Shown piece after piece: positions 1,670-57,451 of a stretch of DNA of 64,000 nucleotides (position 1 is its first letter; every line of letters begins with the position of its first letter). The notes beneath the pieces were generated by a model. That model was given only the letters and a program-made list of their open reading frames with translations, had not been told where the DNA came from and did no database searches. Made by a program: the position numbers and the translations under genes. Source of the stretch: Raillietiella orientalis (taxonomy: Eukaryota); contig JAYWIR010000002.1 of NCBI GenBank assembly GCA_036172245.1, positions 4,154,001-4,218,000 on the forward strand, read 5' to 3'.

Positions 1670-3000
1670 CGCAGAGCTGCCCGCCTTGGTTTCCTTGGTT
1701 ACCAACAATGTGCAACCGATCCGGAGCAGTCCACTATTGCGCGAAAAAGAGAAGGAATGTAAGGCGCCCTTCTATGGGCACAGCATCGATGCTTTCGATG
1801 AGTGGTCGACGCGCTCGGCATATGACCGAATGCACGCGCATGGCTTTGGCAAGTTCGCCGGGAGCCACGCACTCTTTAAGCCGGACTTCGAGCCAGCTCA
1901 TTTTGAAGAGGGCGTTAAGCGGGTCGGGCCGGCGGGCACTCTGGCCAGCCTCCTGGTTTCCGCCCGGAGTAGCTATCGGGCTGTACGGAGCGCTTCCTTG
2001 GACACCGGGACGCAAAAACAGGCCAAAGGTCGCCGCGCCCGTTCTTGTCGCGTGCTCCTGGGCTGCCTTGAGCCGCTCCTCGGTTCTCTTCCCGGAACTC
2101 TAGCTTGGCAAACAGCGGCCAGCTGCGGCACGGGAGCGCAGCCGCTATGGGGGATGCTCACAGCGAAATGGGTTCCCGGATTCAGCGCTCCGAAACGCGA
2201 AGAAAAGTGGGAAGCGGTGGCGGTGTTTCGACTAAGGCAAAATCCAAGGTCTTCTTCCCTGAGCTTCCGGCGAAGACGACACGGCTTGCTGAGAGAGCTC
2301 CGAAACCTCTCTGCTGGCGAGCCTCGTTGCCGTCTCCCCCCTGGGAGGTGGCGCGCGGTTTCTGACAGAGGCGTGGCTCTGGCGAAGGCAGCAGCGGATG
2401 CCGGCCCTCGTGGGAGCTCTCAGCCGACTTCGTGCGCTCCTGTCCAGGAAGCTGCGGGCAGCACAGCTCCGCCAGAGCGCCAGTCGTCGTAGGTGCCCAA
2501 ACACCCTTAAGCCTCTCGCCCTTTTTGTCGTTCGCGCTGCTGGACCCTGAGCTTCCTCTTTGCTTTTCGGCAGAGCGCTCGGAGGCGTCACAGCGAAGAG
2601 GCGCGGTCCGAGGAACGTTCCGCCTCGCGTGACGCCATCGGAAACCGATGCCGAGCATCGGTGGCACCTCACGGAGTGTGGAGTTGCCTCTTCCCGTGGG
2701 CTGTCCACTGGGTGATTGTGGAGGAGAGAGGGATCCGCTCGCAGCTTCGAACGGGGAGTCGCAGCGGGTCTCCCCGCGAGAGGAAGGGAAGGAAGCGCTC
2801 GCAGTTCCTCCAGACACCTAGCGGAGCAGCGACGAACCACGTTTCTCCCCGAGGGGGCCGGAGCAAGTACGAGTCGCGTGCGCTAACCAGCCAGTTCGGG
2901 AGGAGGGGTGCGCCGGCCCGGGTTCGGACAGGAGCGAGTGTGGGGAAGAAAAGAGGGGGGCAGGAAGAGGAAGGAACTCTCCCGGCGAGGGACGGCGGCG
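1670..3000 (+). mobile_element. Decayed L1/Tx1-clade reverse transcriptase region
   Basis: ORF 1686-2492 carries collinear degenerate RT motifs: IDAFDEW..HGFG (DxxKAFDRV..GFG), EEGVKRVGP..LASLL (RGVRQGCPLSPLL), SLSFRRR (LSLRGR), VALAKAAADAG (LPKEEGGLG). The 3' limit is approximate. Confidence 0.5.
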
Positions 3001-5214
3001 GCCTGGAGCGCGGGGACCCGCCGAGCGCTCAGTCGGCGGAGCCGCCGGTCGCTCGCTCGCCACCCTCGGCACGGCAGCGCGCGAGGCGCTGGATCTCTCT
3101 TTCACTAGGATCCGTGCAGGCTTCGTTGGACCGCTGTTTTTCTCCTTTCTGGAAGGATGGAGAACCGTCCCCGCGGACGCTCCCTGACCGCGCGCGAGAT
3201 CGCACCGAAAATCCCTGGACTGAATCCCTGGACGAAAAAATCGGGGGCGAACGAGACGGCAGCCCCTGCTCCTTGAGCTCCCCGCTGGACCGCTCCGGAG
3301 ACCACGAAGCCCCAGCTGCCCACTTCCTCCCACCCATGCGCACGCTCAAACTCACACACTCACGCGTGGAGAGGGAAAGAGATAGGATGGAAACAGGGTA
3401 GGGAATCGAGAGTGCCAACTCCCACTCCCCATTCCTCCCTTCCTCACTCCCTCGGGCGTCGCCTTGGTCCATTGCGCAGCGAGCGGACTTCCTCCTGCTC
3501 CGCAAGTGCCGTCGCTCGCTCGTACCCGAGGCGTCCCCGGGAGCACCGCTGCCGCGCCTCCCGCGTTTTCCGACATCCCCGTCACCAGGGCGAGCCGAGA
3601 GCGCGGGGGCGACGGATTTACGGGATCCACGTGGCAACGAGCTCCCAACCAAAAGGCGCAACAAGGGGAGGAGGAAAGACAAAGAAAACTGCTCGTCCCT
3701 GACGTCATAGATCCTGGATGCGACCGCGGAGCCTCGATGATGCCATCTGCCGCTGCCGCCGCCGCTCTCGTTGTCATTCTCCAGAGCCTTCGGCAGCGCC
3801 AGGAGGATCCCTCTGGGAAGGGGGGGGATGCAGCGTCACCCTGCTGCTGCTGGGGAGACTGCTGCAGTGCCGGGAGCCCCTCGTTCCCGCGCCCCTCCTC
3901 TTCTTTCCCTCTCGGGGGAGTCTCCCGAGACGGCTGAGGCTTTGGGCTCTCCCACGAGGATCCTGGGGATGAATCCCCCGCGCGTGGTGGACGCAAGACT
4001 GGCATCAGGGAGGGGCGGGAATGCTGGCGCGGTCTCTTCCGGAAATTTGATCTTTTCTCTGCAAGTGGATTCGAACCGCTCCTTTGCCTTCCCCTCTTCC
4101 TCCTTCCCTCTTGCCTCCTTGACTCCTTCTCCTTTTCTTCCCCTCCCTTCGTTCTCTTCCCCCACTCCTCCTCCCTTCCTCCTCCTCCCCTCGATCTTAT
4201 TCTTCCCGCCCCCTCCTCCCCCGAGCCACCCTCTGCCGTTGCCACAAATCCCGCCCAGCAGAGGCGAAACGGTCCCGAGCAAGTTTCCGCTTCGGCTTCC
4301 CTCCCGGTTCCCGCTTACCTGCGTCTAATGGAACCGAAGCGGGATGAGCCCGTCACCCTTTGTCAGCCGCAGGAGTCCTCCTCCACCTCTCCTCCTCTCC
4401 CCTCCTTTCCCGTCCTCTTCCTGCCCTGCCCTGCCTTGAGCTGGAGCCGCGGAGCGCCGAGGGGAAAACCTGGGAGCTGAGTAGGGAGTGTTCGCGCCCT
4501 TCCTCGCCCTCTCCCGCGTCGGTACCTTCCGGAGGTACCAGTCCTTCGAGCGGCTGAAGGGGCCTCAACACCACTACCAGCCTCAACGTCCACCCCCCTC
4601 CCCACTACCGGCCCCGGGAGAGTTCCGTCCTACTTTACCTCTCCGGTTTCCTTGCCCAACGAGGGAAGGTTGCGAGGACGGAGGGAGCTGTTCTGCGCCT
4701 TGGGTCCTCATCTCCGGGCAGCGGGACTGCGATGGAGGACTGCCGCAGGAAGGACTGCCGCAGGAGTCTCCTCTCGGGAAAGAGTCCAAGGAGTCGGCAC
4801 GGATGAGCCAAGGGCCGGGGGCTAAGCAGCAGCAGCAGTGGCGACGAAGGCAGCTGAGGATCATGGGGGCCCTCGCTGGCGCAGACGCTTCTCCCAGAGC
4901 GCGCATCCCTTCGAGCCTCCCATTCTTTCTTCTGTTGGCAGGGTGCGCATCGAGCGCCTCCCACGCCGGTAAGCGGCGACGGCAGGGAGATCATTCCTTC
5001 GCGGTGGTCCCTCTGAGCTGGTGCTTCCCCTGGCCCCCGTCCAAGAGGTGTCCAGAACCGAAACTCAGGGGTCGTCCGTCGATTCGTCCGAGCACGCGTA
5101 AACCCCAATCCAGAAGCACGCAGAGCGAGCAGCGGCTATCGACGGCAGGGGGCGGGGGAGGAAGCGATGCGGATGCTGACACCTCGTGGAGATGGCCCTC
5201 GCTTCCCACGCGCT

Positions 5215-5967
5215 AGGGGCCACGCGCGAAGCGATGAAGGCGGCGAGATACACGCGCGCGCCCTCGTTCGATTTCCACGCAGAATTCTCCGGAGGCGGCT
5301 CGGAAGCAATCTGCGACTGGTCGGGTTCTTACCGACATCACTGGGCCCGAGGAGTGAGGAGGAAGGGAGGAGGGTGTGAACCCCAGCTGCAGCAGGTGCG
5401 GATGGCGAGATTCCCTCCCGCACCTGCCCGTGGACTGCATCACCCTCCGGCCTTCACGGGGACGCTCGGCCACCACCCTCCTCATCCCGGCTCTCGACCC
5501 CAGCCGGGACGTCTTGAAGCGCCTCTTCAAGCGCGAAGCCCTACCGCCCAGTCGCGTCCCTAGAAGCAGCGTCTTCGCCGCCTCCGCGGAATTGCGGCGG
5601 CCAGGAGCGATGCCGGAGGAGGCCAGGACGACGGTGACGCACGCTTCCCACTTTGGGCCGTCCGCTCCCCACAGATGGCATCGAGATGGCCTCACCACCC
5701 GGGAACCATTCAGCAAGACCTCGCCGGAATCCTCGGAAGGATGCAGAGGACACCCTCCAACAGAGGATCTTTTCCGGACCTTCCTTAGCTTTTATATATT
5801 TATTTTTTTATTTTTCCATTCGTCCCCTCCCCCCTGATGCCGAGGCAACCGCGCTGATCTGCGCGCCGCCCCTCGGCAGATTCCTCGTGTGGATGGGCGT
5901 GGTGGACTGCAAGCCAGTACCTTTGTTCTGCTTAAAAGACGCCCCGGTGCGCACCCGGGCGGGAGAC
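5215..5967 (+). mobile_element. Tx1-like family A, 3' fragment (copy A)
   Basis: CSRC..SLPHLPVDC zinc knuckle; C-terminus LAGILGRMQRTPS shared with copies B, C, D; T-rich 3' UTR, conserved GCCGAGG..CCTCGGC stem and terminal GCCCCGG..CCGGG hairpin. The 5' limit is approximate. Confidence 0.75.
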
Positions 5968-6279
5968 GACCTCCCGAGTTGGCGTCCATGTGGCTGCAGC
6001 GGCCTCCGCGCGTGGTTCGAAGCGTCGCGGGTTCGAATCCCTCCCGTGGAAGGATAGACGATCGAGAACAGGCGGTGTGTCATGGGTCTCGAGTTCTCCC
6101 CGCAGAATGAAGCTGGTTGGCTATGTTCAGGTGCGGAGGCACTGGTGGAAACCGGATGCCCCCCCCCGTTGACTGGCCCACGGGACTGGAAGGTGACCCT
6201 CCTTCCTCCGGAGTCCTTCCCGGATTCATAGAGCAGAGTTTCATAGAGCATAGCGGTCCTTACCCAGCATGCTCCGTAT

Positions 6280-6867
6280 TCCCGTCCAACTGCTGCAGGT
6301 CCGGGGAACATGAATCCCTCCCCCATCTGCTTTTGCACCGTGTTGCCCTTCGACCCCTGTGGTTGCGTTACGCAACGGCCCTTGGTGCACCTACGGACAA
6401 TCCCAGGGCGAGACTCCTCTTCATGCGCCATGCCCTTTCGCCTGCCACATCCCCAGCAGCTCTTTGCTGCTGCCTACGCGGGATTGTGGCGGCCTGGAGC
6501 TACACGAGAGGAGGACGGTACGACAGGGACGCCATCTGCTTCGCCCTGCGCTTCCTGCGGACGGCAGCTAGATGGCCCTATCTGGGACAAAATCAGAAGG
6601 AACTTGCCGGCATCCTGGAAAGGATGCAGAGGACGCCTTCCAGCTCCTGGTGATCCCTTTCTTGACCCTCCCAATTTTTTTGTATAATTTTTTTTTTTAT
6701 TATTTCTGTTTTTTACTTCACCTCTGCTGCCGAGGCGAACCTCTTCGGCCTGCGTGCCGGTCACTCGGCAGGTTCCGAGCATTCTCGGACAATGTAGGGA
6801 CGGTGGCCCTACACCTGTATGTTTATTATTTTTTATAATAAGCGCCTCGGCGTGACCGGGTGATAAA
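6280..6867 (+). mobile_element. Tx1-like family A, 5'-truncated insertion (copy B) with TSD CCGTAT
   Basis: CCRSGEHESLPHLLLH..LRPLW knuckle region, stop at 6653, family 3' UTR. CCGTAT at 6274-6279 and 6868-6873; the empty site is seen at about 10426-10450. Confidence 0.85.
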
Positions 6868-7097
6868 CCGTATCTTGAAGTGTTGACACGCGCCCCTGGG
6901 TGGCGCGGACAGCGCCAAAGAGCTTCGTGAGCTCCCCTTAAGAAAGCGGGCGGTTCTTCAGCACTTCATGGGAGCCAAAAAGGAAAAAAAGAAGCTGGAA
7001 GGAAAGCAGCAGAAACAGAAGGACTCGAAATGATTCCCATCATCCTGGGCCAATGTCTGTCCCGGCATAACTGGGTGATAATTATCCTGGGCCAATG

Positions 7098-7984
7098 CTA
7101 GGACATGCTGCATAGCAGCAAAGACTAAACTTATGGGGAGCGTGAACAACTCGGGAAGTGACGGACGCTGCGACCCTGAGTGTCCCACCCCACGGACTTG
7201 TGCTCTGTGGAGAGCTGCTCGATATCCCTCCGGAGGAGGTGAATTGGCCTCCAGTGTGCTGGAATAGTGCAACCTTCCCCCCCCCCCTCCTTCTCAAGGG
7301 GTAGGGGTTGGCGTTGCTGGTGTTCCCGGGAATCCCGCACAAAGCGCTCCTTCACCACTGGACACAGGGGAGGGAGCATGCACGCTCGGTACGACAGGTG
7401 CGAGAAGTCCCGCACCTGCTGTTGGACTGTTCCGCCCTCCGATCCCTTTGGGGTCGCCTCGCGACGACCCATGGAATCCCTGCGAGCGGACCCAAGGACA
7501 TTTTCAGATGCCTCTTCGTGCGTGATGCTGCACTGCCACCAGCCGCGTCCCTCGTACTCGTCTGCTGCTCCCCGGAATCGTGGCTGCCTGGAACGCGGAA
7601 GGAGAGGCCGAAATGGCAGGGATGCCATCCACTGGGCGAGGATCTTCCTGAAGACCGCCTCGAGATGGCCCCATCTGGACGCTACACAGACGGAACTTGC
7701 CAGCATTCTGAGCAGGATGCAGAGGACTCTGAGCAGCGTACCATGATCCCCTCCTCGGTCCCCCTCCCCGCTCTCCCCTCGTAAAAATCCCCGTCCCCTG
7801 TTTTGTGCGTTTGTTTTTTTTTATTGTTTTTGTTTCCCCTCCCTCACGCTGCCGAAGAGGACCTCGCCGACCTGCGCACCGCTCCTCGGCAGGCCCATTG
7901 AGCGTTGTAGAACCAACGGCCCTACCACGAAGAATGTATTTTTATTACTCTACGTAATAAATGCCCCGGCATAACCGGTGGTGA
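7098..7984 (+). mobile_element. Tx1-like family A, 5'-truncated insertion (copy C)
   Basis: PHLLLDCSALRSLW, C-terminus RWPHLDATQTELASILSRMQRTLSSVP*, AATAAA followed by the terminal hairpin. Flanked by degenerate TSD TTATCCTGGGCC (7082) / TCATCCCAGGCC (7985). Confidence 0.8.
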
Positions 7985-8249
7985 TCATCCCAGGCCGTTA
8001 GCAACGGCCTCCCTTTGAGGTCGCTACTGGCCTTTGGCAAAAAAAAAAGGAAGCGATTGTTCGGGATCGACCCGGGTTGCATCGCATCCGGTGTTTACGT
8101 GATCAGCGATCGCATCGTGGAAGCGCGGCAATCAAAACAGGAAGGATATGCCGCGGAAAGGGGGGAGGACGGGACTGGGCGGGGGGGGAGAGAGAGAGAG
8201 AGCGCGTGCGTGCAGCGGGAGCGGCGAAGGCTCCAAACTGTTTACCTCG

Positions 8250-8620
8250 GGGATCCTGGACGCCCCGAACTCATTACTATTCCGTTTACAGGAATGTCTG
8301 GCACGATTTCAAGATATGCACTCGTCCCTCGCCATCGCTGCGTATGATTCCAGGATAAATGGAAGCGAGAGCAATCGTTCCACATCTCGATGGAGCTGCT
8401 GCTGCATCGCAAGCCCCCGGAGCACGGGCGTGGGGCGCAAGAATGCCCAGAATTCGGCTCCGCCGCTAATCGACTCGATTTCTGCCCGCGCGTTTTCGCA
8501 CGGAGCGCGGAAAGTAAATGATGATTTACGAGCAAACGAGGAATTTAATGATTTTTCGGATAACTGGAACGAAGGACAAGCTGAAATGAAAAAAGGAACT
8601 TCTTCATTTCTCAAGGAAGG
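8250..8620 (-). mobile_element. Possible hAT (Buster/Charlie-like) transposase C-terminal remnant
   Basis: AEFWAFLRPTPVLRGLAM..DVERLLSL and EIVPDI resemble the hAT dimerisation domain (EFW..YPxL..A..ERxFS). No TIRs found. Confidence 0.3.
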
Positions 8621-8829
8621 AGTGTATTTTGGGAGGGGGGGGGGAGGAGGAAATCTCTCGAAAGGCAAACGTGTGTCGGAAAGGAGAGAGAGGTCCAATA
8701 AGTGCGGAAGTCCACGCACGGGGTAGTTGGCACGCGCGGGGGTTCCCTCCGGGGGGAGCGATCCCTGGCGTACCGCGTGCAGCTGACGAGGAGCTGATCC
8801 CTATCCTGCTGAAACCCGGCGGAGGAACT

Positions 8830-9150
8830 CTAACCGCGAGCCGTGAACACGCCGCTACTGGCGATTGAATCTGCATGTACCAGGAGCGGTCCATCCACGC
8901 AGCGCCCTTCGGTTTCCCGGAGAGCAAACCGAACGCGAGGAAGGAATCGCAGCGGCTTCGGACCGATGATATCCGGGAGAGACGCTGCTCTCACCATGGT
9001 GACGTGGTTGTCAAGCACTGATTTTCGCTGCAGCGATCCTCGCGAAGAAGGGATCCCTCTAAGCTCTCGCGGACCGAAAGAAGTAATCCTTCATCATGTG
9101 ATTTTATGCTTGTCTTCTGGAAGAAGAGGGAATAACAGGGTACATCCCTG
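8830..9150 (-). mobile_element. Possible pogo/Tigger DDE transposase remnant
   Basis: KSVLDNHVT...LRFLP...VDGPL resembles DDE_1 LLLDN.SSH...FLPP...QPLD..GP.K. Confidence 0.35.
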
Positions 9151-9931
9151 TCGGACATGAATGCAGGTCATTAGAGCTGGATATCGGGAGGTGCAGTCCT
9201 TTTTTTTCCTTTCTTATTCTTCTTCTGTTCAAATAGCAGTACCTGATTTTAAAAAAATAAATAAATCTATAAATAAAATGAATGGATCTACGGGTGGTTT
9301 CGATCCGTCTCCAGTATCCCTACAGCGGGACAACTGCAAGGTTTCCACCCACGGAGTTTCATCAAGCCGTGGTATGGGAATCCAATCGCGGAACACCCTG
9401 GTTGCGCTGCCAGGGAATCCTGAGTCTCCTGAAAGAGGAGGATCTCCTGCCGCCTCCGCTGCGAGTTTTCGTGAGATGCGTCCACGAGCAGCTGCGCGTA
9501 AGGGGGAGATAAAAAAAGGGGGGGCATCGGGAACAGACGCACCGCGAAACCCACCCAGCGCGCATCTGCAAGGAATCTGATTCGAGTCGACTGCATCTCC
9601 CCCCCGTCACGTGAAACGAAGTAACCTTCCCCCACACACACACATACACACCTTCCCTTCCTCCCTTACCCCAGAATCGCATGCGTCATCCTCCGTGACT
9701 GACCCCAGACGCGAACCGGAGTCAGTGGGAGCATCGATGCGCATTTCGTTTCGATCACCCGTGATTCTGGAAGTGCAGCATCTATTGGGGAGGGTTGGCT
9801 CTGGGCCGAAACCCCCTTCGCGAAATAAGAAACATAAGAATAACGGGAAGCTGCATCGACACCTCGATACATCCCGACGCTTGCGAATCGAGAATTCTTT
9901 CCCCGGCTCCGGAGCAGCGATTTCCGACATC

Positions 9932-10960
9932 TTCGCAGCGCGGCCGGCCGTGAGGCTGCTGCGGTCCCTCTGCGCCACGCGGCACCGAGAGTCGCCGGTT
10001 CGAATCCCCACGTGGAGGATCGGCGCCGAGAAATGGGGTGGGTGCGTCGTGGGTTTCGAGTCCCCCCCGCAGGATGGCTCTGGTCGGCCTGTAGACTGCG
10101 GGTGCGGTACCGGTGGATGCCCGAAAAGACCAGGATGCTCCCCGTTGAGTGGCCAGGATTGCAAGTTGACCCTCCAGGGTCCTTCCAGGACATCAAGGAG
10201 CCCTTCGGGGTTTCCTTCCGGTTGCGAAAATGGAACCGACTCCTACCCCTTTTCGAGGGAGGACCTTCCATCATTGCATGATGGAGCTGGTTGATACCCC
10301 TAACGGGGATTGCCTCTCCAGATCGCCAGAAACGCTCTGCGCCCTCTAAAGAAAATGGGAAGTGAAAGGAAAAGGAACGGACTCCCTCCTCAGAAGTCCT
10401 TCCCGGACTCATAGGGCGCTCCCCACCCAGCGTACCCCGTGTCTTGAAGAGTTGGCACGCACCCTGGGAAGGCGTCGACAGCGTCAAAGAGCCTCGCGAG
10501 TACCCCCCTGAGGAGGCGGACACAAGTGCGGCCGTTTGCGAGGACAGTAAAGAATCACGTGACAGCAATAGAACAGCGAGACGCGATGAAAAACCCGGTG
10601 ACCGAATGCTTTCATGCAGCGGGGTAGTCCTTCGAGTGAGGGAGGGGAAGTGGGAGTTCCGCAAGCTCTCCGGAAAAAAGCAGCGGAAGGCATCGCCGTG
10701 GAGCTTCGAACGCTGAGGTGCCGAGGAACACGGCTGATGCGCAAGATGGAGCCGGAAACGAAAATATGTCCAAGAAAGAGAAATGGTGCATACAAGTGGA
10801 GCGGGGAATGTCAGCACTCCAGCCAAGGGATTATTCCCGAAACGTCACAGCACTGTAGCTGAGGGAAAGCTGAAAAAAGATGGATTTGTGCGTGCACATG
10901 CTGTGACCAGCATGGCGAAAGCACGACCTACTTGAAAAAAAGAAGAAGGAAAAGAAAGAA
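9932..10960 (+). mobile_element. tRNA-headed long repeat, copy 2
   Basis: GGTTCGAATCCCC near 9997 and a second B-box-like GGGTTTCGAGTCCC near 10051; body matches copies 1 and 4. The 3' limit is approximate. Confidence 0.75.
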
Positions 10961-11074
10961 AAAGGCTAGTGAAGCGTTCCCGGAAATTCGTTCGTGACTC
11001 TGGAGTGCAGTTCCCACCACCTTCCGAGACTTTTCCCCAAAACAGCACGTAGGGAGAGAATCCCACCAAACCCG

Positions 11075-11525: not shown

Positions 11526-12410
11526 TTAACGAAGTTTTCTCAGGGATCGAATGTACGCTTGCACGAACACGCGTGTACGCGTTCCGTGTGCTGATAGTGC
11601 TTGACCTTCCAGTTCCATGGTGTTATTAACGGAGTCCTGGTTGTGGCTACAAAATGCCTCCAGACGCCTGGCCACCTCGCCAAGAGGCACGGCTACGTAC
11701 TGAGACACTGGCATTCCTGCTATTGCTCTTTTAATCAACTCCAACTGAGGACATTACTTTTCCTGGAAATCTGCACAGTGAGTTCCAGAGTTCAATGGTG
11801 GAATAGTGGATTCCAGATCAAGGATTTTTTTTTTTTTTTTTTCGAAAGATTCATGTTCAATCATCCACTCACCTCAAGGCATCCCATCTCGCCGGTGGGC
11901 TAAGAATGGTCCTTAAATGTGTATCGTGGGGCGTGTTTCTTTCTTTCTTTCTTTGAAGAATCTGACTCACCAATAGAAGCACAATCAATTTCTTGAGCCT
12001 GAATAAACAGAAAATAGCAAGTTGGGATGCCTCCGGCGGAAGAAATGTGCCATCAATCAAGAACTCGAGAAGACCTCGTAGAAATAAAGTGAAGCATTGA
12101 GAAGGAAAGGGCAATCTCAGTCGTGGAAATTATTTTAGGACCGGGGACATCAGGAAGAACTCACCAACAAATGTTCCAGTTCGCGAAGAGAGCGCGATTG
12201 TAAAAAAAAAAGAAAAAAGAAAAGAAATTGCTTGTCACCTCGAATTGAAATTTTTAAAGGAGATTCCCTTCTACTATGCACGCCATTGTGGACCATAAGA
12301 AGTGTAATTTCACAAGGGGATATGGAAAAGATGAGGGAATTTCGAGATATGAAACGATCCACAAAAATGAGCATATCTTCGCGAATGAATGGGAAGTTAT
12401 GTTTCAAAAA
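11526..12410 (-). CDS. Candidate multi-exon gene, unknown product
   Basis: Three minus-strand GTGAGT donors (near 11870, 11967, 12162) and a terminal exon CAG|LELIKRAIAG...RSLRKLR*. I could not build one consistent phase chain. Confidence 0.3.
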
Positions 12411-13512
12411 GAGTCATGTATTTGTCGGCTTAAAGAAACTTCATGACCTGATAATCGAATCTTTTGTTCAGGGATTAATTAGTACCTCGCTGGGTTTTCC
12501 CCGATAGAGTGCAAAAAATTCCACTCAGTGTATTAAAATTCTTAACCGAGTTTTTGCAGTTGAAATAGAAAAATGTTCTTCGAAGTTTTGATTTTGTTTA
12601 CCACTATAATTAATCATACCTATAGTTTGACATGTAATTTAATGAACGCACCAGATTCAAGATTGAAAACTATGGAGTGAAAAATAGATAGGAGTAAAAA
12701 GTTAAGGTTTTCTGCTGTGATGCAGCCTTTTCAATCGTAGCTTTGTATAACCTCTAGGGAGGGCGCTTTCAACCCGAGTCCATAAAAACTTTCTGGATTG
12801 CATTTTTCACTCCAGTGCAATTTTGGAAACGTATATGACAAAATACGCTGCAAACAAAAGGTGAATGGGTAAATTGTGTTTTAAGAAGCACAGCCAGATT
12901 ACTGATAATAATTCTTACCACAAGCATAGTCTTCAGGTTAAATATTCACTTGTAAAGATAAAGCGTACTTGATGGCTTTCATAGTTTTTATTTTTGTTAT
13001 CATATTAAAAGAAATTGTCTCCTAGTTTTCTAAGAGTTGTTTGTGGATACGGGACGATTTTTCCGTGCTCGAGTGTGACTGTATAGAATGATGTTAAAGC
13101 TGTAAAAGATAATCGATGCGGTAAAATACTCTGAATATGCCCTTCATTTCAGTGGAATATATTATGCGAATCATGCCATTATCATAATTATTTTTCTGAA
13201 ACTCCATTACAACAACAACAAATCCAGAAATTGCTTTTGTAGTGATTGATAGATTGATTGATAGAAAAACTATGATCTCACAGATTAATTAATTCAAGAA
13301 ATAAAGTAACAGATCGGTGTAATCAAGAAGTCAACTCTCAATATTTATCAATCGAAAGTTTTAGTAGATGTTTCTTTTCAATCAAGATTAGATTCCTTCA
13401 TAGTTTACAAATTAATTGATGCGGAGAATATAATGGAGTCATTTTTGTGAGGCCGGATGAATTCTTTAGAAGGAACAATATATAATGCAAAAAAATGTAT
13501 GAAAAATAATTT

Positions 13513-14033
13513 ATGGAATGTATCTGCACAGATGACTGTAAAAATGATTCGGGGTTTTACAAAACTGGTAATTTGAAAAACAATTTGCAAAGGGAATATT
13601 CAAATGGGATATTGGTAACCCGAGTTTTAGCAGAAAGTTCGAATGACCATATGGCGCGGATACTGTGTATGACCTGTAATCAGCATTTAGGTATCAAAGC
13701 ATGTGGTATGTGGCGTCTCATGGCGTTGTATGTTATTGTAATATAGTTCATCTACATGTACCAATATTAGTGATGGAATATATTGATCCATGATTGTTAC
13801 TGCATTTCCATCAACGTGTTACATGGATTCTGTCATATGACACCACGTAAACCAATATTAGTGTTGGAATTTTTTAATTTCTTGTGAAAATTAGTTTTAC
13901 CAGATTACCCAGAAAGTACGTGGTTCTTACGTGCCCTGGGAAGTTGTTTGAATGATGCTGTGAAAATGATCTCATATCTTTCATATATCATAAAATGATC
14001 TCATTGTTTTCAGCAATTGTTTCAGTTGCCTGA
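13513..14033 (+). CDS. Candidate small gene, possibly Yippee/Mis18-type zinc-binding fold (3' exons only)
   Basis: HMARILCMTCNQHLGIK resembles the Yippee HxVxDIxCxxCxxxLGWK motif. Phase-compatible donor at 13706, 12-nt exon 13904-13915, last exon 14014-14033. Confidence 0.3.
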
Positions 14034-14183
14034 AATTTTGTTTGCATATCAGTGTACATGTATCCCAGTGTAGTGTGGGTCATTACGGTATTTCAGAATT
14101 GAAACAATAAGTAATCCGTGGTGCCCCAGAGAAAATAAAATTGAAAAATGCAAACAGACGAAGTTATTTTTTTTTAAATCAAA

Positions 14184-17100
14184 ATGCCTTCCAACTATTT
14201 TGGAAGTGATACAGGAAAGAGACGAAGAAATAAAAATACTTTCAAGTTTAGTACTGATAATTCAAAACCCAAACAAACGGTTCTATCAGGAACACGCCCT
14301 GATCGAACAAGCTACCTACGTTATAAGAGATTAGTTGGTAAACACAAAACAGTGCAAGCTGAAAATAAAGGGGTATGGTGAATTTTGTATTTGAAGAGTT
14401 GCATTTTTTTGCATAGGCAAATGCTTTGCGGTCCATTGCTTTTTTTAAAATCGAGCCGCTTATTAGAATTCAGAATGATCCATGGCCAATAGTTGGAAAG
14501 TGCTGTGCCCAATGTTTGCCCATCAGCAAAGTGAGTGGATTGGAATGTTGGGATAAGTATTTGCCCACTTTTATGACTTTTAAGACTTACAATAACATTT
14601 TAAGATTTGTTTTGAAAACTGGGAATGGAAGAATCTGGCAACTTTAGACTAAGCTTTCTGAATTTGCTGGCGCTTGAGATTGTAGCATATTAGGAAATTC
14701 AAAATCATTTCATATGACTCTCAAAAAATTTGGAGAATCAGATGTTCACTTTCAGTACTGACCATTTTCAATAAACTTTGAAAAGGCTAGTGCTGAAAGT
14801 ACTTTTTTGTTTTATGCTTTGCTTTTTAGCTGAACTGTTGCTCTCCAAAATAATAAGTGTAGAATTTACTGAATTAATATATATTTTTCATGACAATCCA
14901 TGTATCTATTTTTCCAGCAAAGCCTGCTTGATAAACTGGCCATGACCCTTGGGAAAATGAATCTGTTGTCTGTACCAACTCAGAATAGAAACTACAACTT
15001 CCTAACACGCTGGACATGCTATTTGTCATATGTGTGGAAGTTGGAGCATTCTTATGAATACATTAATTTTCAGGAACAGGTAGATTCAAACTAAATGAGT
15101 TTTGCCTTAATTAGGCAGTATAGGTGAGAGATAAACAGCTGCCTGCCTTGCTAGAATTTCCTAAACAGAGGAACTCATTGTTGAAACTGTTCCAGAATCT
15201 ATTTAATTGGATGTTTGGATGCTCCGGTAACCTCTGGTTCTTGAGGTAAATGGTTCCTTTTGCAAAATTAATTAGCATTTTGTCTTATCAAGTAGGATTA
15301 GTATTAAGAACTCGAGAAATTTGGACTCTGTGTTCCTATCTGTGATTCGTATTTCCATTTGCGAGTTCACGTGTTTTCTGTGTTGCTTATTTCCATTGCT
15401 GTGTTATTCTTGTTTTCTCTTGTTTTCGGTATCTAAATATTAAGTAATTCAGAAGAATTTTCTTCAACATTCACTTCCAAGAACTTAGATCCCTTTAGAT
15501 ATCAAATTCCATAAGGTATTGGTATCAAAGATGTAATTTTTCAGTCTCTTAATGACTTCAAACATTGGCTATATTTCCAATGTATCTTGTGCCTTTCTAA
15601 TTAGAATTAGCATGTGGTATTATATTTCTTTTGTAAGCATGTTGATTGTGTATGCTGAATTTAAATTGCTGATGCAGTTTTAAACAGCATGTAAAATATA
15701 AGAAAGTAATCTTAGTCTGTTGTCATTACAATCATCTTTGGGTAATGGCTGGAATGTACAGTCCATCAGTATGGTATAACTCTACACTTGAAGTTTAGCC
15801 TTTATGTTCTGTTGTGGTATTACTCATTTAAAATTGGTTGCATAAATACAGGATTCTTAACATGACTGTTAGTGTGCCCCAAGACTACTCCTCCAAGTTA
15901 TAGGGAATGTTAGCATTATTGGGACCAGGTTTTTGGAATTCCACAATTAGATTTTCAGTGCACATTTGAGTATCTTGTTGCTAGATGAAAACAAAAAAGC
16001 TGCATTCTTGGATTGAATTTTTGTGTCATGTGGTAACCATACCACATGACACGAAAACTTTTTTTGTATTTCATTTGTCATCATTGTTTTCGGGTGATAG
16101 TGAAATAATGTATGCCAACTGATTTTACCTTGTCATGTTCACTTATCGTTTTTTCTTAATGTTCTAATATTGTGATAGCTGAAGTGAAACAAAATAAATA
16201 AGTGTAGCTTTAATAAAGAAAAAAGGATCATAAACAGCAAATGCATAATAACCATGCATGTTGATTGTATTGCCAGTGAAATCGTTCAACCTGATCAGTT
16301 TTACACAAGTAGCTTTATCTAGCTTAACACAGGAACCTTAGAATTATGTAGTGTTTTTCCTAGGCTCTTTCTCAGTCTGGAACTTCATCACCATGTATGT
16401 AATTTTTGTTCATAATTGATTAGCCACTTGTTTAAGCATTTGCTGGAAACCTCATCTGATTTGATTTTTTGTTCTAGGTTATCACTGTGGTTGACTTACA
16501 AATTCCTTCACAGCTGCTTTCAGACAGTGCAGATGTACAAGGGACATGTGGATATGTTGCAGAGAGCAGTCTTGTCACCATATCCAGTACTATTTGTGAT
16601 GCTTGCTCAGAATCCATTGGATTATTTGCTTTTGAGTTTTGCTCTAGTAAGCAATGAGTTGCCTCTGCCTCATATTATATCACTCAGTGATAAGGAAGAT
16701 TACTCCTTTTGGTAATAAGACATGAATATCCTATGTTAGTTCATATATCACTTGTTTGACCAGGGAGGCACTCAGCAGGATAAATCATTGGCAAATAAAC
16801 CTTGAAGGTTTTTCTAAAAAATCAGCACAGACAGAATGCATTTCCGTTATCTTAAAAGAGAAGAATCCTTTGGTATTGTTGCTTGACAGACAGCATCTGG
16901 ATGCAAGTAAGTACATTTTTGCATGTTAGAATGCGAGTTATCGTTAATTTCAGATCAGCATCTAAACATTCCAATAAAAATGTGTTCATCTGGAAATTTG
17001 GTGGATGTTCTTATGGTCCCTGTGGCCATTAGTTATGAAAAAGTTTTTACTTCAAAAAATGTTTTGTCATGCAATGGAAATGTTAGAATCAATGTAGGAC

Positions 17101-19107
17101 AGCCTTTCAGTTTACAAGTACACCAATTGAACTAGTTACGGATGTAATAGCTTACAAACATTTCAGGAATTGATGAAAGCAGCCGTTTCCAACAAAGCAG
17201 ACAGATCATATGTTTACAGCTTAGATGAACAAGGGATGCAGCAGTACATGTTGGATCATATTCAGTTTGGTATGTACATATTAGAGTGATTTTGAACAAA
17301 GGAACTTGAAGTAAAGCTTTTGAAATTCAGGAAAACTTTTACTGGAGATCGGAAGTTTGATTTTTAAATTCAATTTTATGCAAAAATAAATCCTAAATGC
17401 TTTGAAGATATATGCGAAACAATAATTTTGATTTTGATCAGCCATCTAGTTGTAGGCCCTATGAACATGTTCAGTTTTTCCTATTTTCCACATTAATTTT
17501 TATGATCTTTGTTATAACCATTTATTCATATATCATACATATTGGAATGTTCTTTGTAAGCTTGCGAGTCAGCATAGATATCTTAAGCTTGAAATATTCA
17601 GTCCTGCACTTACAGGTCCTAGTTATGACTTTCACATGGAAATTCAGTAATCTAAATATTCAACTGCATTTCCCTAGTTACGTGAACCATCTGTCGCCTC
17701 TTGTATTGTATTAAATCAAAAAGATTGATATTTAACTGAAAATTTTGCTTCTCAACTGATGTCAGTAGAAATACGAAACCACTTTTCCTGTTGCTATCTT
17801 GCACCACCAGCAATCATACTTGTTAACTTTACTATTGCCAATTGCAATTTTTCTTGCAGATTGTAGACGTCTGTCCACAATTATGTCAACAGATGTGGTT
17901 TCGTGTATTCTTTTGTATGGGTTTGAAGATGGTCCGACATTAGCAAACTTGCAGGAGTGGATAACATGGATGTCGGAAGAAATTCGTCAGCGCAAACACG
18001 ACCTAGGCTTCACTGGTAGTGCAAAGGATGTTGCCCTGCATGCTGTATGTATTGAAGAGTGAGGCAATTGGAAGTATATTTGCAATTATAGATTGAAATG
18101 TTAGAGGACACAGTAAAATGCTCTTATGTAAACAAGGAAACTGATGTAGAGATAATTCTTCTGAAAACGCCAACAGCTTTATGCCATTTGCAGTCTCATG
18201 CCAGTGCAGTGGTTTCAGTATTTATCTGGGATGCAACCCTTGGTATAAGCTTTAAGAGTGTGCATTGACTAAAAACATTTTCAAGAGTAGCAGTTGCAAT
18301 CTTGAACAACGTTCACCCAGAACTTTTGAAATCCTATTGTAGCATGTGCAATCTGGTAGTTCAGCAACAACAAATAAATCAAACAGCTTTGAAACTTCAG
18401 CAATGGCTTCAAGGCTTTAGCCACATGGTTCCTCCTTGCTGTCAACTTCCCCTCCAAGTCATCGATGTGATAGATCGATTTGTGCAAAAAGGTATTCTGT
18501 GCTTTCAGAAGGTATAAACATAAAGCAAAGATAATGGAGGTTACTATATGTCTTTTGATCAGGACCAAAGAAGCAGAGGTTCTGGTGTTTGGAAAGATTA
18601 TGATGTTGAAGATGAAGAAGGCTCTTATTATTCTCCACAAACTTTTCTTGAGGTTGACGCATGTGAGCTTATTTGCATTGCAGAAAGTATCTTTGTCTTC
18701 AGGTGTCATGCCATCCCAGACACCAAGAGATGTTGTTTTTCTTTTCATCCTTGCTGCAACCAGTTTTACTGGCATGCTTAGGAGTCATCTCTCAGTTGTA
18801 CAAAATGGTGCACAGTGAAATTACAGAGCGTTATCTGATCAAAATGGTGGACAGTTTTGTGAAGTCTAGAAATTACAAAAATAGTTCGTTTCCCTTCAAC
18901 ATGTTGATTTATATTTGACTGTTCTTTGTAGGTGAACTGATAACCGCAGACTATATCCAAAGTGTAATCCAATCTTTGTACAGGATGAAGGTTCTGGAAA
19001 CACATCGACAAGAGGACATTACGGTCCTGTATCTGTCTTCAGAATATGATAGCTATACCAAAGTTGAATCGCTTGTGAATGAGGTACAAGAACTGTACAT
19101 TTGGTAA
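14184..19107 (+). CDS. GPAM: Mitochondrial glycerol-3-phosphate acyltransferase (GPAT1/2)-like protein with degenerate catalytic motifs
   Basis: Phase-consistent GT-AG exons: 14184-14372, 14417-14530, 14918-15079, 16364-16398 (least certain), 16478-16711, 16764-16906, 16954-17117, 17167-17269, 17860-18044, 18092-18242, 18291-18511, 18563-18652, 18703-18883, 18932-19107. GPAT1-like motifs: PIVGKCCAQC, YKGHVDML, DYLLL, VPVAISYE, VRINVGQPFSL, IMSTDVVSCILLY, DLGFTGSAKDVALHA. Confidence 0.9.
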
Positions 19108-19923: not shown

Positions 19924-19968
<45 letters not shown>

Positions 19969-27675: not shown

Positions 27676-29840
27676 CTAAATGGTGGTCCATCTCCATCCT
27701 GAACACCGGCGCCAAATGGCCAAGATATGGGCCAACCGCTTGAGCAGAACGTTGCAGTCCACCGTCTCTCAGGTTCAGACGTGCCCCGTGCCCGGCCGCC
27801 GCATGTCCGACAACGTAAAGTGTGCCCAGGCCACCACCGGTTACAGCCGCTACGTCGCCGACGACCCGGTGCTAGGTTTCACGGATATGGAGAAGGCCTT
27901 CGACAGCGTTGACCATGGCATGCTGCTGAGGATCCTGCGGAAACTGGGCTACCCAGGATACTTCAGCGATTACATCGGAATGACATTGAAGGCGCAGCAC
28001 TGCTGGATCACGATCAACAGACGCGACACGTAAACCATCCGGATGGAAAGGGGAATTCGCCAAGGAGACGTCTGAGATGCTGTTTGCTTTGTAAATGGAG
28101 GTGATGTCGTCCTTAATCGAGCGAAGTAGCCTCCTACAAGGACTGATCGTGGACGAACACAGGCTCATACACCTGGCGTATGCGGACGATCTTTTTCCTG
28201 AAAGACGAGAAAGATCAGCATGCATTCTTCGGTATAGTGGAGTCCATGGAGAAGGCGCTGAGCTTGAAGGTCAACGCCCGCAAGTCACACCTTTTGCCCA
28301 TCGGGATCATGAACCTCTCCACCTTAACGGAGAAGGGATTCCTCGTGATGAACGATGTCAAATATCCCGGAATCAACATAGGGAATGCGAAAATCCTCAC
28401 TGAAGATCCACTGGGACAAAATACTACAAGTCAGAGAAGAGGGCATGAAGTACGTCCAAGTCGACTCCGGCATAAAGCAAAGGGCCAATTTGTGGAACGA
28501 TGTGTTCCTCCACAAGGTGCTCTTCGGGACTGCCTTCTGCCGAATCGACCAGAAGACGAGAACAGAAGTGGAGAAGCTGCAGAGAAAGATCATCTGGAGG
28601 GAGTCCAAGCCGCGGGTCAGGCTCAAATTGCTGTGCCGCCCGCAAGAAGAAGGTGAGACCGGGATGAAATCGCTGCCCCAGGCCATCGATTACCTTGATG
28701 CGCGATAACTGGCTCTCATCGCCGACCTGGAAGAGTGGCCTTATGCAGCCCACAGGGCTAATTCGAGGTTGGTCAACCACTCGAGTGACCTGATGTCGTC
28801 GCTCATTGGCAAACACGGAGAATGGGGTACCATCTACCCCACCTGGAAACGGAAGCAGACACTGGTGGCCAGACACCTTTTCAAAATAGCGCCTGGAAGT
28901 GAAGAGCTGTGGAAGGAAGAACTGATCATGGTGATCCCGTACTTTGTACTTGTGCCCAAGGACACCTGGAAGTGAATTCTCCAGAGGCCAGCAATGACCA
29001 TCCGCGGCTGCGAATAGTTTGCAATCAGTGGCAACGTCCACAAGATGAGACGTTGAGTTGCGGATGTTGGCCACCAAAGCCAACATCCGCAACTCAATGA
29101 AGCAGCACTACCAGGAGAAAGACGTCCTCTCCCTGGCTGCAACCGCTGCGGGACACGGGTGGTGAACCTGCAGGCTGTTGGAACTACAGTCTTTGAGAGC
29201 GAAATGCCACCAGACACCCAGGACAACCTCCTCCTGCTCTACCATGGAGGCGACCTGAGTGGAAACAGGATAGCACACTGGACTGACAACATCGATGACG
29301 AGCTCTGCAAGGCATGTGGTAGAAAGGGAACCCAGCTCCACGGCTTCACCTGTCCGACGCTGCGCCAGGACTGGAGCATGCTGAAGGCGGCCTGCAGAGG
29401 ACCACAAGAGTGAGCATCTTAGTGGGAATGTTCGACGGGAATGCCAATGTCCCGCGATACAATCCCATGGTTTGGACCACCATCGCCCTCTTCGTCACAG
29501 CAATTGTGATCAGAAGGGCAAAAATGTCAAATATGGGGGCCGCAGTGCCCGCTCCATCGCCATACCTGAAGGACTCATCAAACGAGATTGGAATAGGGAA
29601 TTGCGGCAGGAAACCAGTCTGGAACAAACCGCTACATCTTGCAGAAGATCGTGGACGTGACCCGAGCGAGTGCACCTCCCTCCATCCCCCAATGACCTAT
29701 TCGGAGGAAATCACCCCGATCGTGACATTGCAGACGCTACGTGCACAAAAAGCGAACTGTGGGAATCCACAGAAGTGACCTGAGTGCATGAGTGCGAGTT
29801 GTTGTTGATGCTATTGGGGACATTTGTTGTTGATTAATAA
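27676..29840 (+). mobile_element. L1/Tx1-clade family B, 5'-truncated ORF2 (RT plus zinc knuckle), frameshifted
   Basis: SISILNT, KIWANRL, QTCPVPGRRMSDN, DMEKAFDSVDH, RGIRQG, LAYADD, LKVNARKS, VKYPGI, RPQEEG, CKACGRKGTQLHGFTC; stops and frameshifts present. Confidence 0.92.
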
Positions 29841-36289: not shown

Positions 36290-36614
36290 AGCCCGACCGG
36301 CCCGACCCTCAGAGCCAATCCTTCTCCCGAAGTTACGGACCTGGTTTGCCGACTTCCCTTACCTACATCATTCTATCGTCTAGGGGCTGTTCACCTTGGT
36401 GAACAGCTGCGGATATGGGTACGATGTGGCGGGAGATTCGTTCTGCCTCATTCGGATTTTCAATGGCCGAACGGAGCCTTCCGGACGCCGCAAAAACAGC
36501 GGCGCTCTTGGGGGGGCCGATCCTCTCTCCGTACGAGCCGATTCGAGGGTACGAGGCAATCCCTTATGCAGAAAAGAAAACTCTTCCCGGGGCTCCTAGT
36601 TCAACGTCTCCGAG
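36290..36614 (-). rRNA. Dispersed 28S (LSU) rRNA fragment, non-functional
   Basis: Plus strand AGAGCCAATCCTT..CCCGAAGTTACGG..TTGCCGACTTCCCTTACCTACA..GCTGCGGATATGGGTACG..AGAAAAGAAAACTCTTCCCGG is the reverse complement of conserved eukaryotic 28S core. Only about 325 bp are present. Confidence 0.92.
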
Positions 36615-56501: not shown

Positions 56502-57451
56502 TTATTCCTTGCTATCACAAATGATGGATAAGGCTTTTATAGCTTTAAATGTAGAAGACACGTCCGCATCTTTCTGAGTAGAACATTGTTGCTTGTCGTA
56601 AATATCATAAATAGTTATCAAATAAGTTATTTCATCTTCCAGCAGTTTCAAAAAATATGGAATAAACCATGCTTTTCTTTTCACATAGAGTTCATTCAAA
56701 TCTTCAAGTAATTTTTTTTCTATCTGGATTAGTTCTTCCTTATTCACATCCAGTTCTTTCTTAATTTGCTCAGTTTTTAGTGAACATCCAGATTTATTAT
56801 TTTCCTGTTCCAATTTGGACAGTTTCATTTGCAGTTTATTAGTTTCTTGTAGTACAGTTTCTCTGGCTTTAAGATTCATGCTGACCCACTGAAATTCATG
56901 AGCATACTTCTTTAATGGGATCAATAGATTTTCATGGAGAGAATTACTCAGAATGTTGGTATGCATACAAATCTGAAAATTTGCCTCATGTTATGTCTTA
57001 TTTCAAGTTTCTTTCAAAAACACTTTAAATGTATCCCAAATTTCAAGAAGCAATTGACTACAGTACCTGATTTGATATCCCATTTAGTTTGTCAAGACTG
57101 TTATTCAAATTGTCATAATATTCACATATGCTGTGATTTTTCAATTCTGCGCACAATTTTTTGTGCGAATCATGCACATCCACAAAAGATTTTTCCAATC
57201 TTTTCACATCTTTTCGCATTTTTCGCAAAACTTCCTCTAGGCTGGAGTTCGAGCAGTCTTATTTTATTATCACATCACAACTGAAAAGATAGCCAAACCT
57301 TTGCAACTGCAAGAAAATTGTACGTAATTTAGTGTCTGCACTGCTTATTTTAAAAGATGATGGGGTTGCATTGATGAGATAGCCTTTTTTGCGCAACTTA
57401 CTAAAAGTTCATTAAATTAATCCGTTTTGTTTGCACTTACATCCAGTCCAT
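56502..57451 (-). CDS. BIN3: Bridging integrator 3 (BAR-domain protein)
   Basis: Exons 57451-57441, 57400-57299, 57241-57067, 56972-56502 in phase; MDWI start, LEEVLRKMRKDVK, IPLKKYAHEF..KARE..LQE, and C-terminal IKALSIICD resemble BIN3 (MSWI, LEEQTRRLQKDMK, EPLKKF, LRALSIVAD). Confidence 0.85.

What the first reader, a model, noticed from the sequence alone, without database searches (positions are those of the whole stretch)
14184..19107. Intact GPAT1-like gene lacking catalytic motifs I-III: candidate pseudoenzyme
Seen: all exons splice in frame with no stops. Motif I HxxxxD reads AQNPLD (16605-16622, catalytic His lost), motif II GxxFIRR reads NHWQINL, and motif III FxEGTRS reads LLDRQHL. 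Motif IV (VPVAISYE), the N-terminal CCxxC and the C-terminal domain are retained. Established: the His of HxxxxD is catalytic in GPAT/PlsB acyltransferases, and Drosophila Minotaur and mouse GPAT2 act in piRNA biogenesis on mitochondria without needing acyltransferase activity. Inference: a catalytically dead paralog kept as a mitochondrial scaffold, possibly for small-RNA or germline function.
Basis: partly seen in the sequence, partly recalled or inferred. Interest (0 to 1): 0.75.

Follow-up and report, generated by a model that had tools for sequence, protein, structure and literature searches.

The report
Catalytically dead mitochondrial-type GPAT gene
This is an intact animal gene of the mitochondrial glycerol-3-phosphate acyltransferase family that has lost its active-site residues but kept the rest of the protein, much as vertebrate GPAT2 has, so it is an interesting but not unprecedented "dead enzyme".

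Summary
A 14-exon, 702-codon frame runs from 14184 to 19107 (+). All 13 introns are GT-AG and there is no stop.

The product is collinear with GPAT1/GPAT2 from the N-terminal Cys motif to the C-terminus. It scores 236.7 bits against my profile of 16 canonical sequences.

The damage is local:
- Motif I His is Ala.
- No canonical motif II or III exists in any frame.
- Of 27 core columns invariant in canonical enzymes it keeps 6. GPAT2 keeps 10-15 and bacterial PlsB 25-27.
- The C-terminal domain is no more diverged than in other invertebrate GPATs.

This pattern fits a maintained pseudoenzyme better than a decaying pseudogene.

Nearly all of 121 vertebrate GPAT2 sequences lack the motif II/III residues, and 11 have Arg for the motif I His. 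A natural His-to-Arg GPAT2 was noted in 2013 (PMC3708527).

Trees leave its origin open. The best trees place it outside the vertebrate GPAT1+GPAT2 clade, but a GPAT2 grouping is not rejected.

Expression, a second intact paralog, localisation and any piRNA role could not be tested.

The parts
14184..14372 (+). Exon 1, ATG to donor (63 codons). Basic N-terminus with no detectable homology except its last part.
   Evidence: frame, GT donor; loose alignment to the region before the Cys motif
14474..14530 (+). Exon 2. Holds the conserved N-terminal Cys motif, GKCCAQC, at 14495-14515.
   Evidence: profile segment 1, 27.3 bits, spans exons 1-3
14918..15079 (+). Exon 3, N-terminal region.
15196..15245 (+). 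Exon 4 (50 nt). Strong splice sites, and it sets the phase for exon 5. An in-frame alternative skips it and uses an acceptor at 16437.
   Evidence: 236.7 against 234.6 bits; not decided
16478..16711 (+). Exon 5, start of the acyltransferase fold. The degenerate motif I, AQNPLD, is at 16605-16622 (His to Ala, Asp kept).
   Evidence: 8e4y_A residues 128-194, E 7.4e-8
16764..16906 (+). Exon 6, in the position of motifs II and III. NHWQINL is at 16783-16803 and LLDRQHL at 16879-16899. No recognisable similarity to any GPAT.
   Evidence: no PDB hit; profile positions 255-338 unaligned; 10% identity to GPAT1
16954..17117 (+). Exon 7. Motif IV, VPVAISYE, is retained at 17016-17039. About 25-30 residues that follow motif IV in the family are missing, including four columns that are invariant in canonical enzymes.
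17167..17269 (+). Exon 8, linker into the C-terminal domain.
17860..18044 (+). Exon 9, the best-conserved part of the GPAT C-terminal domain.
   Evidence: 8e4y_A residues 419-475, E 4.5e-9; Pfam GPAT_C E 0.014
18092..18242 (+). Exon 10, C-terminal domain. Holds one of the two most hydrophobic 19-residue stretches, protein residues 467-485.
18288..18511 (+). Exon 11, C-terminal domain.
18563..18652 (+). Exon 12, acidic loop. Its donor is weak (GTTGAC).
   Evidence: residues across the junction match the family
18703..18883 (+). Exon 13, C-terminal domain. Holds the second hydrophobic stretch, residues 595-613. Its donor is weak (GTTCGT).
18932..19107 (+). Exon 14 with the TAA stop. It is aligned to the family up to the C-terminus.
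   Evidence: profile segment 5 reaches profile position 811 of 813

Best explanation
The locus is an intact gene for a roughly 700-residue protein of the mitochondrial GPAT1/GPAT2 (PlsB-like) family in an unidentified animal. The 44-52 nt introns suggest it is probably not a vertebrate. The protein keeps the family's overall architecture but has lost the residues that carry out acyl transfer and bind glycerol-3-phosphate, so it most likely has no GPAT activity. It is probably kept for a non-catalytic role carried by the parts that are still conserved: the frame around motifs I and IV, two hydrophobic segments and the animal-specific C-terminal domain. The most likely such role, by analogy with GPAT2 and Drosophila Minotaur, is as a membrane-attached scaffold on the mitochondrial surface in germline piRNA production.

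Shown here: intact frame, family membership, loss of the motifs, and erosion confined to the core.

Inferred: that it is expressed, that it is inactive, where it sits in the cell and what it binds.

My odds: about 0.8 that it is an intact GPAT-family gene without a canonical active site; about 0.6 that it is a maintained non-catalytic protein; about 0.3 for the piRNA role specifically.
For: Intact frame:
- 702 codons over 14 GT-AG exons have no stop, while the other five frames have 27-48 stops.
- At the introns' stop density of 0.068 per codon, an open run of this length has a chance of about 4e-22. The exons were chosen to be open, so this overstates the case.

Family membership:
- 236.7 bits in five collinear segments against a profile of 16 canonical GPAT1-type sequences. 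The C-terminal domain alone gives 164.9 bits.
- Exons 5 and 9 hit human GPAT1 in the PDB.

Local erosion of the core:
- Of 27 core columns invariant in the 16 canonical sequences, the window keeps 6, twelve GPAT2 keep 10-15 and four bacterial PlsB keep 25-27.
- Identity to eight jawed-vertebrate GPAT1 in the motif II-III stretch is 10% for the window. It is 39-59% for six canonical sequences and 28-32% for three GPAT2.
- In the C-terminal domain the window is at 24%, inside the 18-29% range of the five non-vertebrate eukaryotic sequences.

Consequence of the His change: His to Ala in PlsB abolishes activity (Heath and Rock 1998, as quoted in PMC3708527).

Precedent for a non-catalytic role:
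- A catalytic-dead Minotaur rescues, and the Q663* allele removes the C-terminus but not the core.
- GPAT2 is described as a structural component on the mitochondrial outer membrane (review PMC9114089).

Membrane segments: the two most hydrophobic 19-residue stretches coincide with hydrophobic stretches conserved in the family.
Against: - No RNA evidence and no orthologue were available, so selection (dN/dS) was not measured.
- The terminal branch is very long: 2.48 changes per column against a median of 0.43. On the C-terminal domain alone it is still 2.24, so the whole protein evolves fast and not only the core.
- Two donor sites are weak.
- About 55 residues of the N-terminal region and 25-30 residues after motif IV are missing relative to the family. 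Decay could also cause this.
- No polyadenylation signal lies within 1 kb of the stop. The first AATAAA is at 20164.
- Nothing here bears directly on location or on piRNA.
- In a recent heterologous assay GPAT2 recruited none of the tested piRNA factors to mitochondria (PMC12624062), so even the model's mechanism is unsettled.
Confidence: 0.55

Rival explanations
1. It is the GPAT2 orthologue of a fast-evolving chordate. The degenerate motifs would then be inherited from the event that produced vertebrate GPAT2 and simply carried further, not lost independently.
For: - Highest pairwise identity is to coelacanth GPAT2, 26% over 643 columns.
- The unfinished quick tree put the window inside the vertebrate GPAT1+GPAT2 group, SH-aLRT 93.
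- Trees that force window+GPAT2 together are not rejected: p-AU 0.249 on all columns and 0.167 on the C-terminal domain.
- GPAT2 shares the loss of motif II/III residues.
- Smart et al. 2014 say in one passage that GPAT2 arose in 'chordate lineages', while another passage and their Figure S1 legend say vertebrates (PMC4207751).
Against: - The finished trees put the window outside a vertebrate GPAT1+GPAT2 clade, with support 90/74 on all columns and 95/93 on the C-terminal domain.
- At 24 columns that tell GPAT2 from GPAT1, the window has 6 GPAT2 states and 6 GPAT1 states. The seven non-vertebrate controls have 3-9 and 3-9.
- Its C-terminal identity to GPAT1 is 24%, at invertebrate level, against 33-39% for GPAT2.
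- Motif IV reads ...ISYEK, as in the mite, amphioxus and other invertebrate sequences, not ...YD as in vertebrates.
- Introns of 44-52 nt are unusual for vertebrates (my own knowledge).
Confidence: 0.25
2. It is a dying or unexpressed gene, a recent pseudogene whose frame has not yet been hit.
For: - Loss of every catalytic motif, two internal deletions, two weak donors, a very long branch and no nearby poly(A) signal.
- No close relative is known. The best of 12 hits among 1.84 billion representatives is 46% identical over one exon.
Against: - Divergence of this size with no stop or frameshift in 702 codons, and with 13 usable splice-site pairs, is not what neutral decay gives.
- The erosion is concentrated in the core, while the C-terminal domain stays at the level of working invertebrate genes.
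Confidence: 0.12
3. It is still an enzyme, an acyltransferase or hydrolase with a rebuilt active site or another substrate.
For: - The motif I Asp, motif IV and the fold-forming flanks are kept.
- Mammalian GPAT2, which also lacks motif II/III residues, is reported to raise GPAT and AGPAT activity when over-expressed (abstract of PMC3414494, seen in the listing).
Against: - The general base His is Ala.
- 21 of 27 invariant core columns are changed or deleted.
- The stretch that binds glycerol-3-phosphate is unrecognisable and shorter.
Confidence: 0.08
4. It is a gene-model artefact: a missed or alternative exon supplies working motifs.
For: Intron 4 is 1232 nt and intron 8 is 590 nt, which leaves room for exons. 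One in-frame alternative acceptor exists at 16437.
Against: - No H-x4-D, F-[ILVM]-[RK]-R or E-G-[TGS]-R in a GPAT-like context in any frame of 12-21 kb. The only H-x4-D hits are out of context.
- tblastn with 12 homologues finds only the modelled exons.
- Retaining intron 5 or intron 6 runs into a stop within a few codons (read from the sequence).
Confidence: 0.03

Closest known systems
Vertebrate GPAT2 (glycerol-3-phosphate acyltransferase 2, mitochondrial), a piRNA-pathway factor of the intermitochondrial cement
   Same: - Same family and length, with end-to-end collinearity.
- Motif II arginines and motif III G-T-R are lost: R277 is kept in 1 of 121 GPAT2 sequences, G316 in 3 of 121 and R318 in 3 of 121.
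- Motif IV and the C-terminal domain are kept.
- Some GPAT2 also lack the motif I His: Arg in 11 of 121, and zebrafish according to PMC3708527.
   Different: - The window's erosion goes further: Ala at the His, Asp at the motif III Glu that 118 of 121 GPAT2 keep, and 6 of 27 invariant core columns kept against 10-15.
- Extra deletions after motif IV and in the N-terminal region.
- It carries no excess of GPAT2-diagnostic residues, and the best trees leave it outside the vertebrate clade.
Drosophila Minotaur (CG5508)
   Same: - A GPAT1/2-type protein with the C-terminal extension.
- Its piRNA function needs neither the His nor the Asp of motif I, and is lost in an allele that truncates the C-terminus (passages of PMC3708527).
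- The window shows the natural counterpart: core lost, C-terminus kept.
   Different: According to that paper, Minotaur still has a canonical active site. No Minotaur sequence was among my fetched proteins, so I did not align them directly.
Human GPAT1 (PDB 8E4Y, 8E50), the canonical mitochondrial enzyme
   Same: Exons 5, 7 and 9 align in order to chain residues 128-194, 273-299 with 333-345, and 419-475.
   Different: GPAT1 has all four motifs. The window's equivalent of chain residues about 195-272 is unrecognisable.
Bacterial PlsB
   Same: Same fold family, and a C-terminal region matched by Pfam GPAT_C (precomputed domains).
   Different: PlsB keeps 25-27 of the 27 core columns and the window keeps 6.

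Membership tests
GPAT1/GPAT2 (PlsB-like) family | Full-length collinear similarity, including the C-terminal domain (Pfam PF19277 GPAT_C) | tested here: met
   A profile of 16 canonical members gives 236.7 bits in five ordered segments, and the C-terminal domain gives 164.9 bits. PDB hits to 8e4y_A came from exons 5 and 9. Pfam itself could only be run exon by exon and gave sub-threshold GPAT_C hits (E 0.014 and 0.19, cut-off 25 bits).
GPAT1/GPAT2 (PlsB-like) family | Acyltransferase motif I, H-x4-D (Pfam PF01553) | tested here: not met
   The His is Ala and the Asp is kept. No PF01553 hit came from any exon.
GPAT1/GPAT2 (PlsB-like) family | Motif II (G-x-F-F-I-R-R) and motif III (F-x-E-G-T-R-S), which bind glycerol-3-phosphate | tested here: not met
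   Absent in all frames. The region is unaligned by my profile and finds nothing in the PDB. By position the columns read N, W, N, gap and D, gap, gap, gap.
GPAT1/GPAT2 (PlsB-like) family | Motif IV (hydrophobic-P-V-x-I-x-Y-[DE]) | tested here: met
   VPVAISYE at 17016-17039. The Pro and Tyr that are invariant in canonical members are kept.
Active glycerol-3-phosphate acyltransferase (enzyme function) | Measurable acyl transfer to glycerol-3-phosphate | not testable with these tools
   Only inferred to be absent, from the residue losses.
Vertebrate GPAT2 orthologous group | Falls inside the GPAT2 clade | tested here: inconclusive
   The best trees place it outside vertebrate GPAT1+GPAT2 (90/74; 95/93). 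Forcing it with GPAT2 costs only 2.7 and 5.2 log-likelihood units, p-AU 0.249 and 0.167.
Vertebrate GPAT2 orthologous group | Shares residues that distinguish GPAT2 from GPAT1 | tested here: not met
   6 GPAT2-like, 6 GPAT1-like, 2 gaps and 10 other among 24 columns. This is the same as in non-vertebrate controls.
piRNA-biogenesis scaffold (GPAT2 / Minotaur function) | Germline expression, location on the mitochondrial surface, requirement for piRNA production | not testable with these tools
   No RNA run was listed and no genome is held. Only the retained C-terminal domain and hydrophobic segments are compatible with it.

The most novel reading that the evidence does not exclude
A non-vertebrate animal has dismantled the active site of its mitochondrial-type GPAT independently of the vertebrate GPAT2 lineage, possibly in its only gene of this type, while keeping the C-terminal domain. 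That would be a convergent natural experiment. It would show that the selectable, ancestral job of this protein family in animals includes a non-catalytic one residing in the C-terminal domain, the part implicated by the Minotaur Q663* allele.
Probability: 0.3. Interest if true: 0.55.

Novelty: new member of a known kind. Interest (0 to 1): 0.35.

Why it matters
GPAT2 and Minotaur are required for piRNA production, but nobody knows what they do there. A family member in which every catalytic and substrate-binding residue is gone and two loops are deleted, yet the C-terminal domain is preserved, marks out which parts a non-catalytic role can do without. If its loss of catalysis proves independent of GPAT2, it would also show that this route to a pseudoenzyme has been taken more than once. 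In passing, the comparison shows that vertebrate GPAT2 as a whole lacks the canonical glycerol-3-phosphate-binding residues. That sits uneasily with its routine description as an enzyme with conserved motifs (for example PMC6412627).

Tried and rejected
- Whole genome: none is held, so the search for an intact paralog could not be run. Within the window, tblastn with 12 homologues finds only this locus.
- RNA: no RNA holder was listed and no run of any kind was listed.
- Close relatives: the exon 5 word-based search of longer proteins found none. The exhaustive exon 9 search found 12 hits, the best 46% identical, and none is an orthologue.
- Metagenome scan: it gave one locus, L001. That contig is 63% GC, is matched only by the window's own exon over 36 residues and by no other GPAT, so I treat it as chance.
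- Earlier findings of this scan: nothing for this genome or sequence. The word search returned only bacterial acyltransferases that do not bear on this gene.
- Pfam exon by exon: sub-threshold only.
- Structure prediction and Pfam on the whole protein: not run, because the spliced product is not a contiguous translation of the window and I did not hand joined sequence to those tools.
- Organism: not identified. The only other recognisable pieces are an NHP2 exon, an LSU rRNA fragment and a reverse-transcriptase fragment.
- AU tests: they did not decide between an independent origin and GPAT2 orthology.
- Literature: the original mouse GPAT2 paper (PMC3683914) is not held. A search for 'pseudoenzyme' with GPAT terms listed 12 of 204 papers. 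Only one held both 'pseudoenzyme' and GPAT2, and there the word refers to other proteins. I cannot say from this that no paper calls GPAT2 a pseudoenzyme.


Full report
**What is there**

The stretch 12-19 kb is AT-rich (33-40% GC) and lies beside GC-rich, repeat-like DNA of up to 65% GC. From the stop-to-stop frames and the sequence I built a 14-exon model on the + strand.

- All 13 introns are GT-AG. Nine of them are 44-52 nt long (boundaries corrected).
- The spliced frame has 702 codons and no stop. The other five frames of the same sequence have 27-48 stops.
- Two donors are weak (18653 and 18884). At the first weak junction the residues on either side match the family alignment.
- One in-frame alternative, which skips exon 4 and uses an acceptor at 16437, scores the same and changes no motif.

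**Family**

Single exons hit human GPAT1 (PDB 8e4y_A) in the right order:

| Exon | Chain residues | E-value |
|---|---|---|
| 5 | 128-194 | 7.4e-8 |
| 7 | 273-299 and 333-345 | 0.91 (weak) |
| 9 | 419-475 | 4.5e-9 |
| 6 | no hit at E up to 10 | - |

An exhaustive search of 1.84 billion representative proteins with exon 9 gave only 12 hits, the best 46% identical. They are vertebrate GPAT1 and GPAT2, a sponge GPAT1-like protein and unnamed fragments. So no orthologue is on record.

Inside scripts I aligned the spliced model with fetched family members. It is collinear from the N-terminal Cys motif to the last residues. It scores 236.7 bits in five ordered segments against a profile built from 16 canonical sequences (9 vertebrate GPAT1 and 7 non-vertebrate). 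Profile positions 255-338, the motif II-III stretch, are left unaligned.

**The active site**

- In motif I the His is Ala and the Asp is kept.
- No canonical motif II or III exists in the gene or in any frame of 12-21 kb.
- Motif IV is kept.
- A stretch of about 25-30 residues after motif IV is missing. It holds four columns that are invariant in canonical sequences.

Retention of the 27 core columns that are invariant in the 16 canonical sequences:

| Sequence set | Columns kept of 27 |
|---|---|
| Window | 6 |
| 12 GPAT2 | 10-15 |
| 4 bacterial PlsB | 25-27 |

**The erosion is local**

Mean identity to eight jawed-vertebrate GPAT1:

| Region | Window | Canonical / non-vertebrate sequences | GPAT2 |
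|---|---|---|---|
| Motif II-III stretch | 10% | 39-59% (six canonical sequences) | 28-32% |
| C-terminal domain | 24% | 18-29% (five non-vertebrate eukaryotic sequences) | 33-39% |

At columns that are at least 90% conserved, the window keeps 13 of 20 in the C-terminal domain but only 7 of 38 in the core. The two most hydrophobic 19-residue stretches fall on hydrophobic stretches conserved in the family.

An open frame, usable splice sites, a preserved C-terminal domain and a gutted core fit a protein kept for something other than catalysis. Uniform decay would look different.

Against this, the protein evolves fast throughout. The terminal branch is 2.48 changes per column on all columns and 2.24 on the C-terminal domain, against medians near 0.4. 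I also have no expression data and no measure of selection.

**Comparison with what is known**

I fetched 120 GPAT2-labelled vertebrate proteins and scored them, with the query itself, at the key columns. That makes 121 sequences. They include isoforms and close species, so the counts are of sequences, not species.

| Column | State in 121 GPAT2 sequences |
|---|---|
| Motif I His | His in 107, Arg in 11, Cys in 1, gap in 2 |
| First motif II Arg (R277) | kept in 1 |
| Second motif II Arg (R278) | kept in 3 |
| Motif III Gly (G316) | kept in 3 |
| Motif III Arg (R318) | kept in 3 |
| Motif III Glu (E315) | kept in 118 |

So the loss of motif II/III residues is the normal state of GPAT2, and loss of the His recurs within it.

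From passages of Vagin et al. 2013 (PMC3708527):
- His to Ala abolishes PlsB activity.
- A Minotaur with both motif I residues changed rescues the mutant.
- The Q663* allele removes the C-terminus but leaves the core.
- Zebrafish GPAT2 naturally has Arg for the His.

From passages of Smart et al. 2014 (PMC4207751): GPAT2 is described as a divergent form confined to chordate or vertebrate lineages. A review (PMC9114089) calls GPAT2 a structural component of the intermitochondrial cement that binds MILI. In a 2025 study GPAT2 recruited none of the tested piRNA factors in HeLa cells (PMC12624062), so its mechanism is still open.

**Origin**

I built trees from 33 rows: the window plus 32 of the 281 fetched proteins, picked by hand for taxonomic spread (9 GPAT1, 12 GPAT2, 7 non-vertebrate eukaryotes, 4 bacterial PlsB). 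Partial or doubtful entries such as the hagfish and sturgeon proteins were left out.

- The unfinished quick tree put the window inside the vertebrate group.
- The finished tree leaves it unresolved among animal sequences. A vertebrate GPAT1+GPAT2 clade excludes it at 90/74 support.
- On the C-terminal domain alone the window is sister to that clade (85/80), and the clade has 95/93 support.
- Forcing window+GPAT2 together is not rejected: p-AU 0.249 and 0.167.
- At 24 columns that separate GPAT2 from GPAT1, the window has 6 states of each, like the non-vertebrate controls.
- Its motif IV has the invertebrate-type ending.

I therefore favour an independent loss in a non-vertebrate lineage, but only weakly. 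A fast-evolving chordate GPAT2 remains possible.

**Verdict**

The dead-enzyme reading is well supported by sequence. The scaffold or piRNA reading is a reasonable analogy that nothing here tests. 'Paralog' is unverified. The finding is a new and more extreme member of a known kind, the catalytically degenerate mitochondrial GPAT, and not a new kind.

Noticed in passing
fetched proteins P0005, P0018, P0163-P0281 (not in the window): Vertebrate GPAT2 as a group lacks the canonical motif II arginines and the motif III G-T-R (kept in 1-3 of 121 sequences). 11 of 121 have Arg for the motif I His. Many have no precomputed PF01553 hit. Reviews still describe GPAT2 as carrying conserved motifs I-IV.
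   Followed up: partly
window 56165-56479 (+): An open frame whose residues 29-102 are about half identical to the C-terminal part of human NHP2, H/ACA RNP subunit 2 (PDB 7bgb_I, E 7.7e-25; Pfam L7Ae E 7.7e-11). It is probably the last exon of an NHP2 gene.
   Followed up: partly
window 36382-36830 (-): An isolated fragment of eukaryotic large-subunit rRNA (Rfam RF02543, 87 bits, model positions 1494-1884 of 3401) with no other rDNA around it.
   Followed up: no
window 27680-28033 (+): A reverse-transcriptase fragment (Pfam RVT_1, E 1.2e-6, 28.8 bits, just under the 29.6-bit cut-off), probably a decayed LINE-type element.
   Followed up: no
window 2001-11000 against 12001-19000: A sharp composition mosaic. 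52-65% GC DNA with long open frames in all six frames and no Pfam hit lies next to 34% GC genic DNA. The same alternation recurs along the window.
   Followed up: no
window 19926-19966: An uninterrupted run of 41 T about 0.8 kb downstream of the stop codon.
   Followed up: no
window 16437: An alternative in-frame acceptor that would replace exon 4 by a 14-codon 5' extension of exon 5, with an equal fit to the family profile.
   Followed up: yes
window 56502-56990 (-): A 162-residue open frame rich in Lys, Glu and Leu (coiled-coil-like) with no Pfam match, lying just downstream of the NHP2 exon (56165-56479) on the opposite strand.
   Followed up: no
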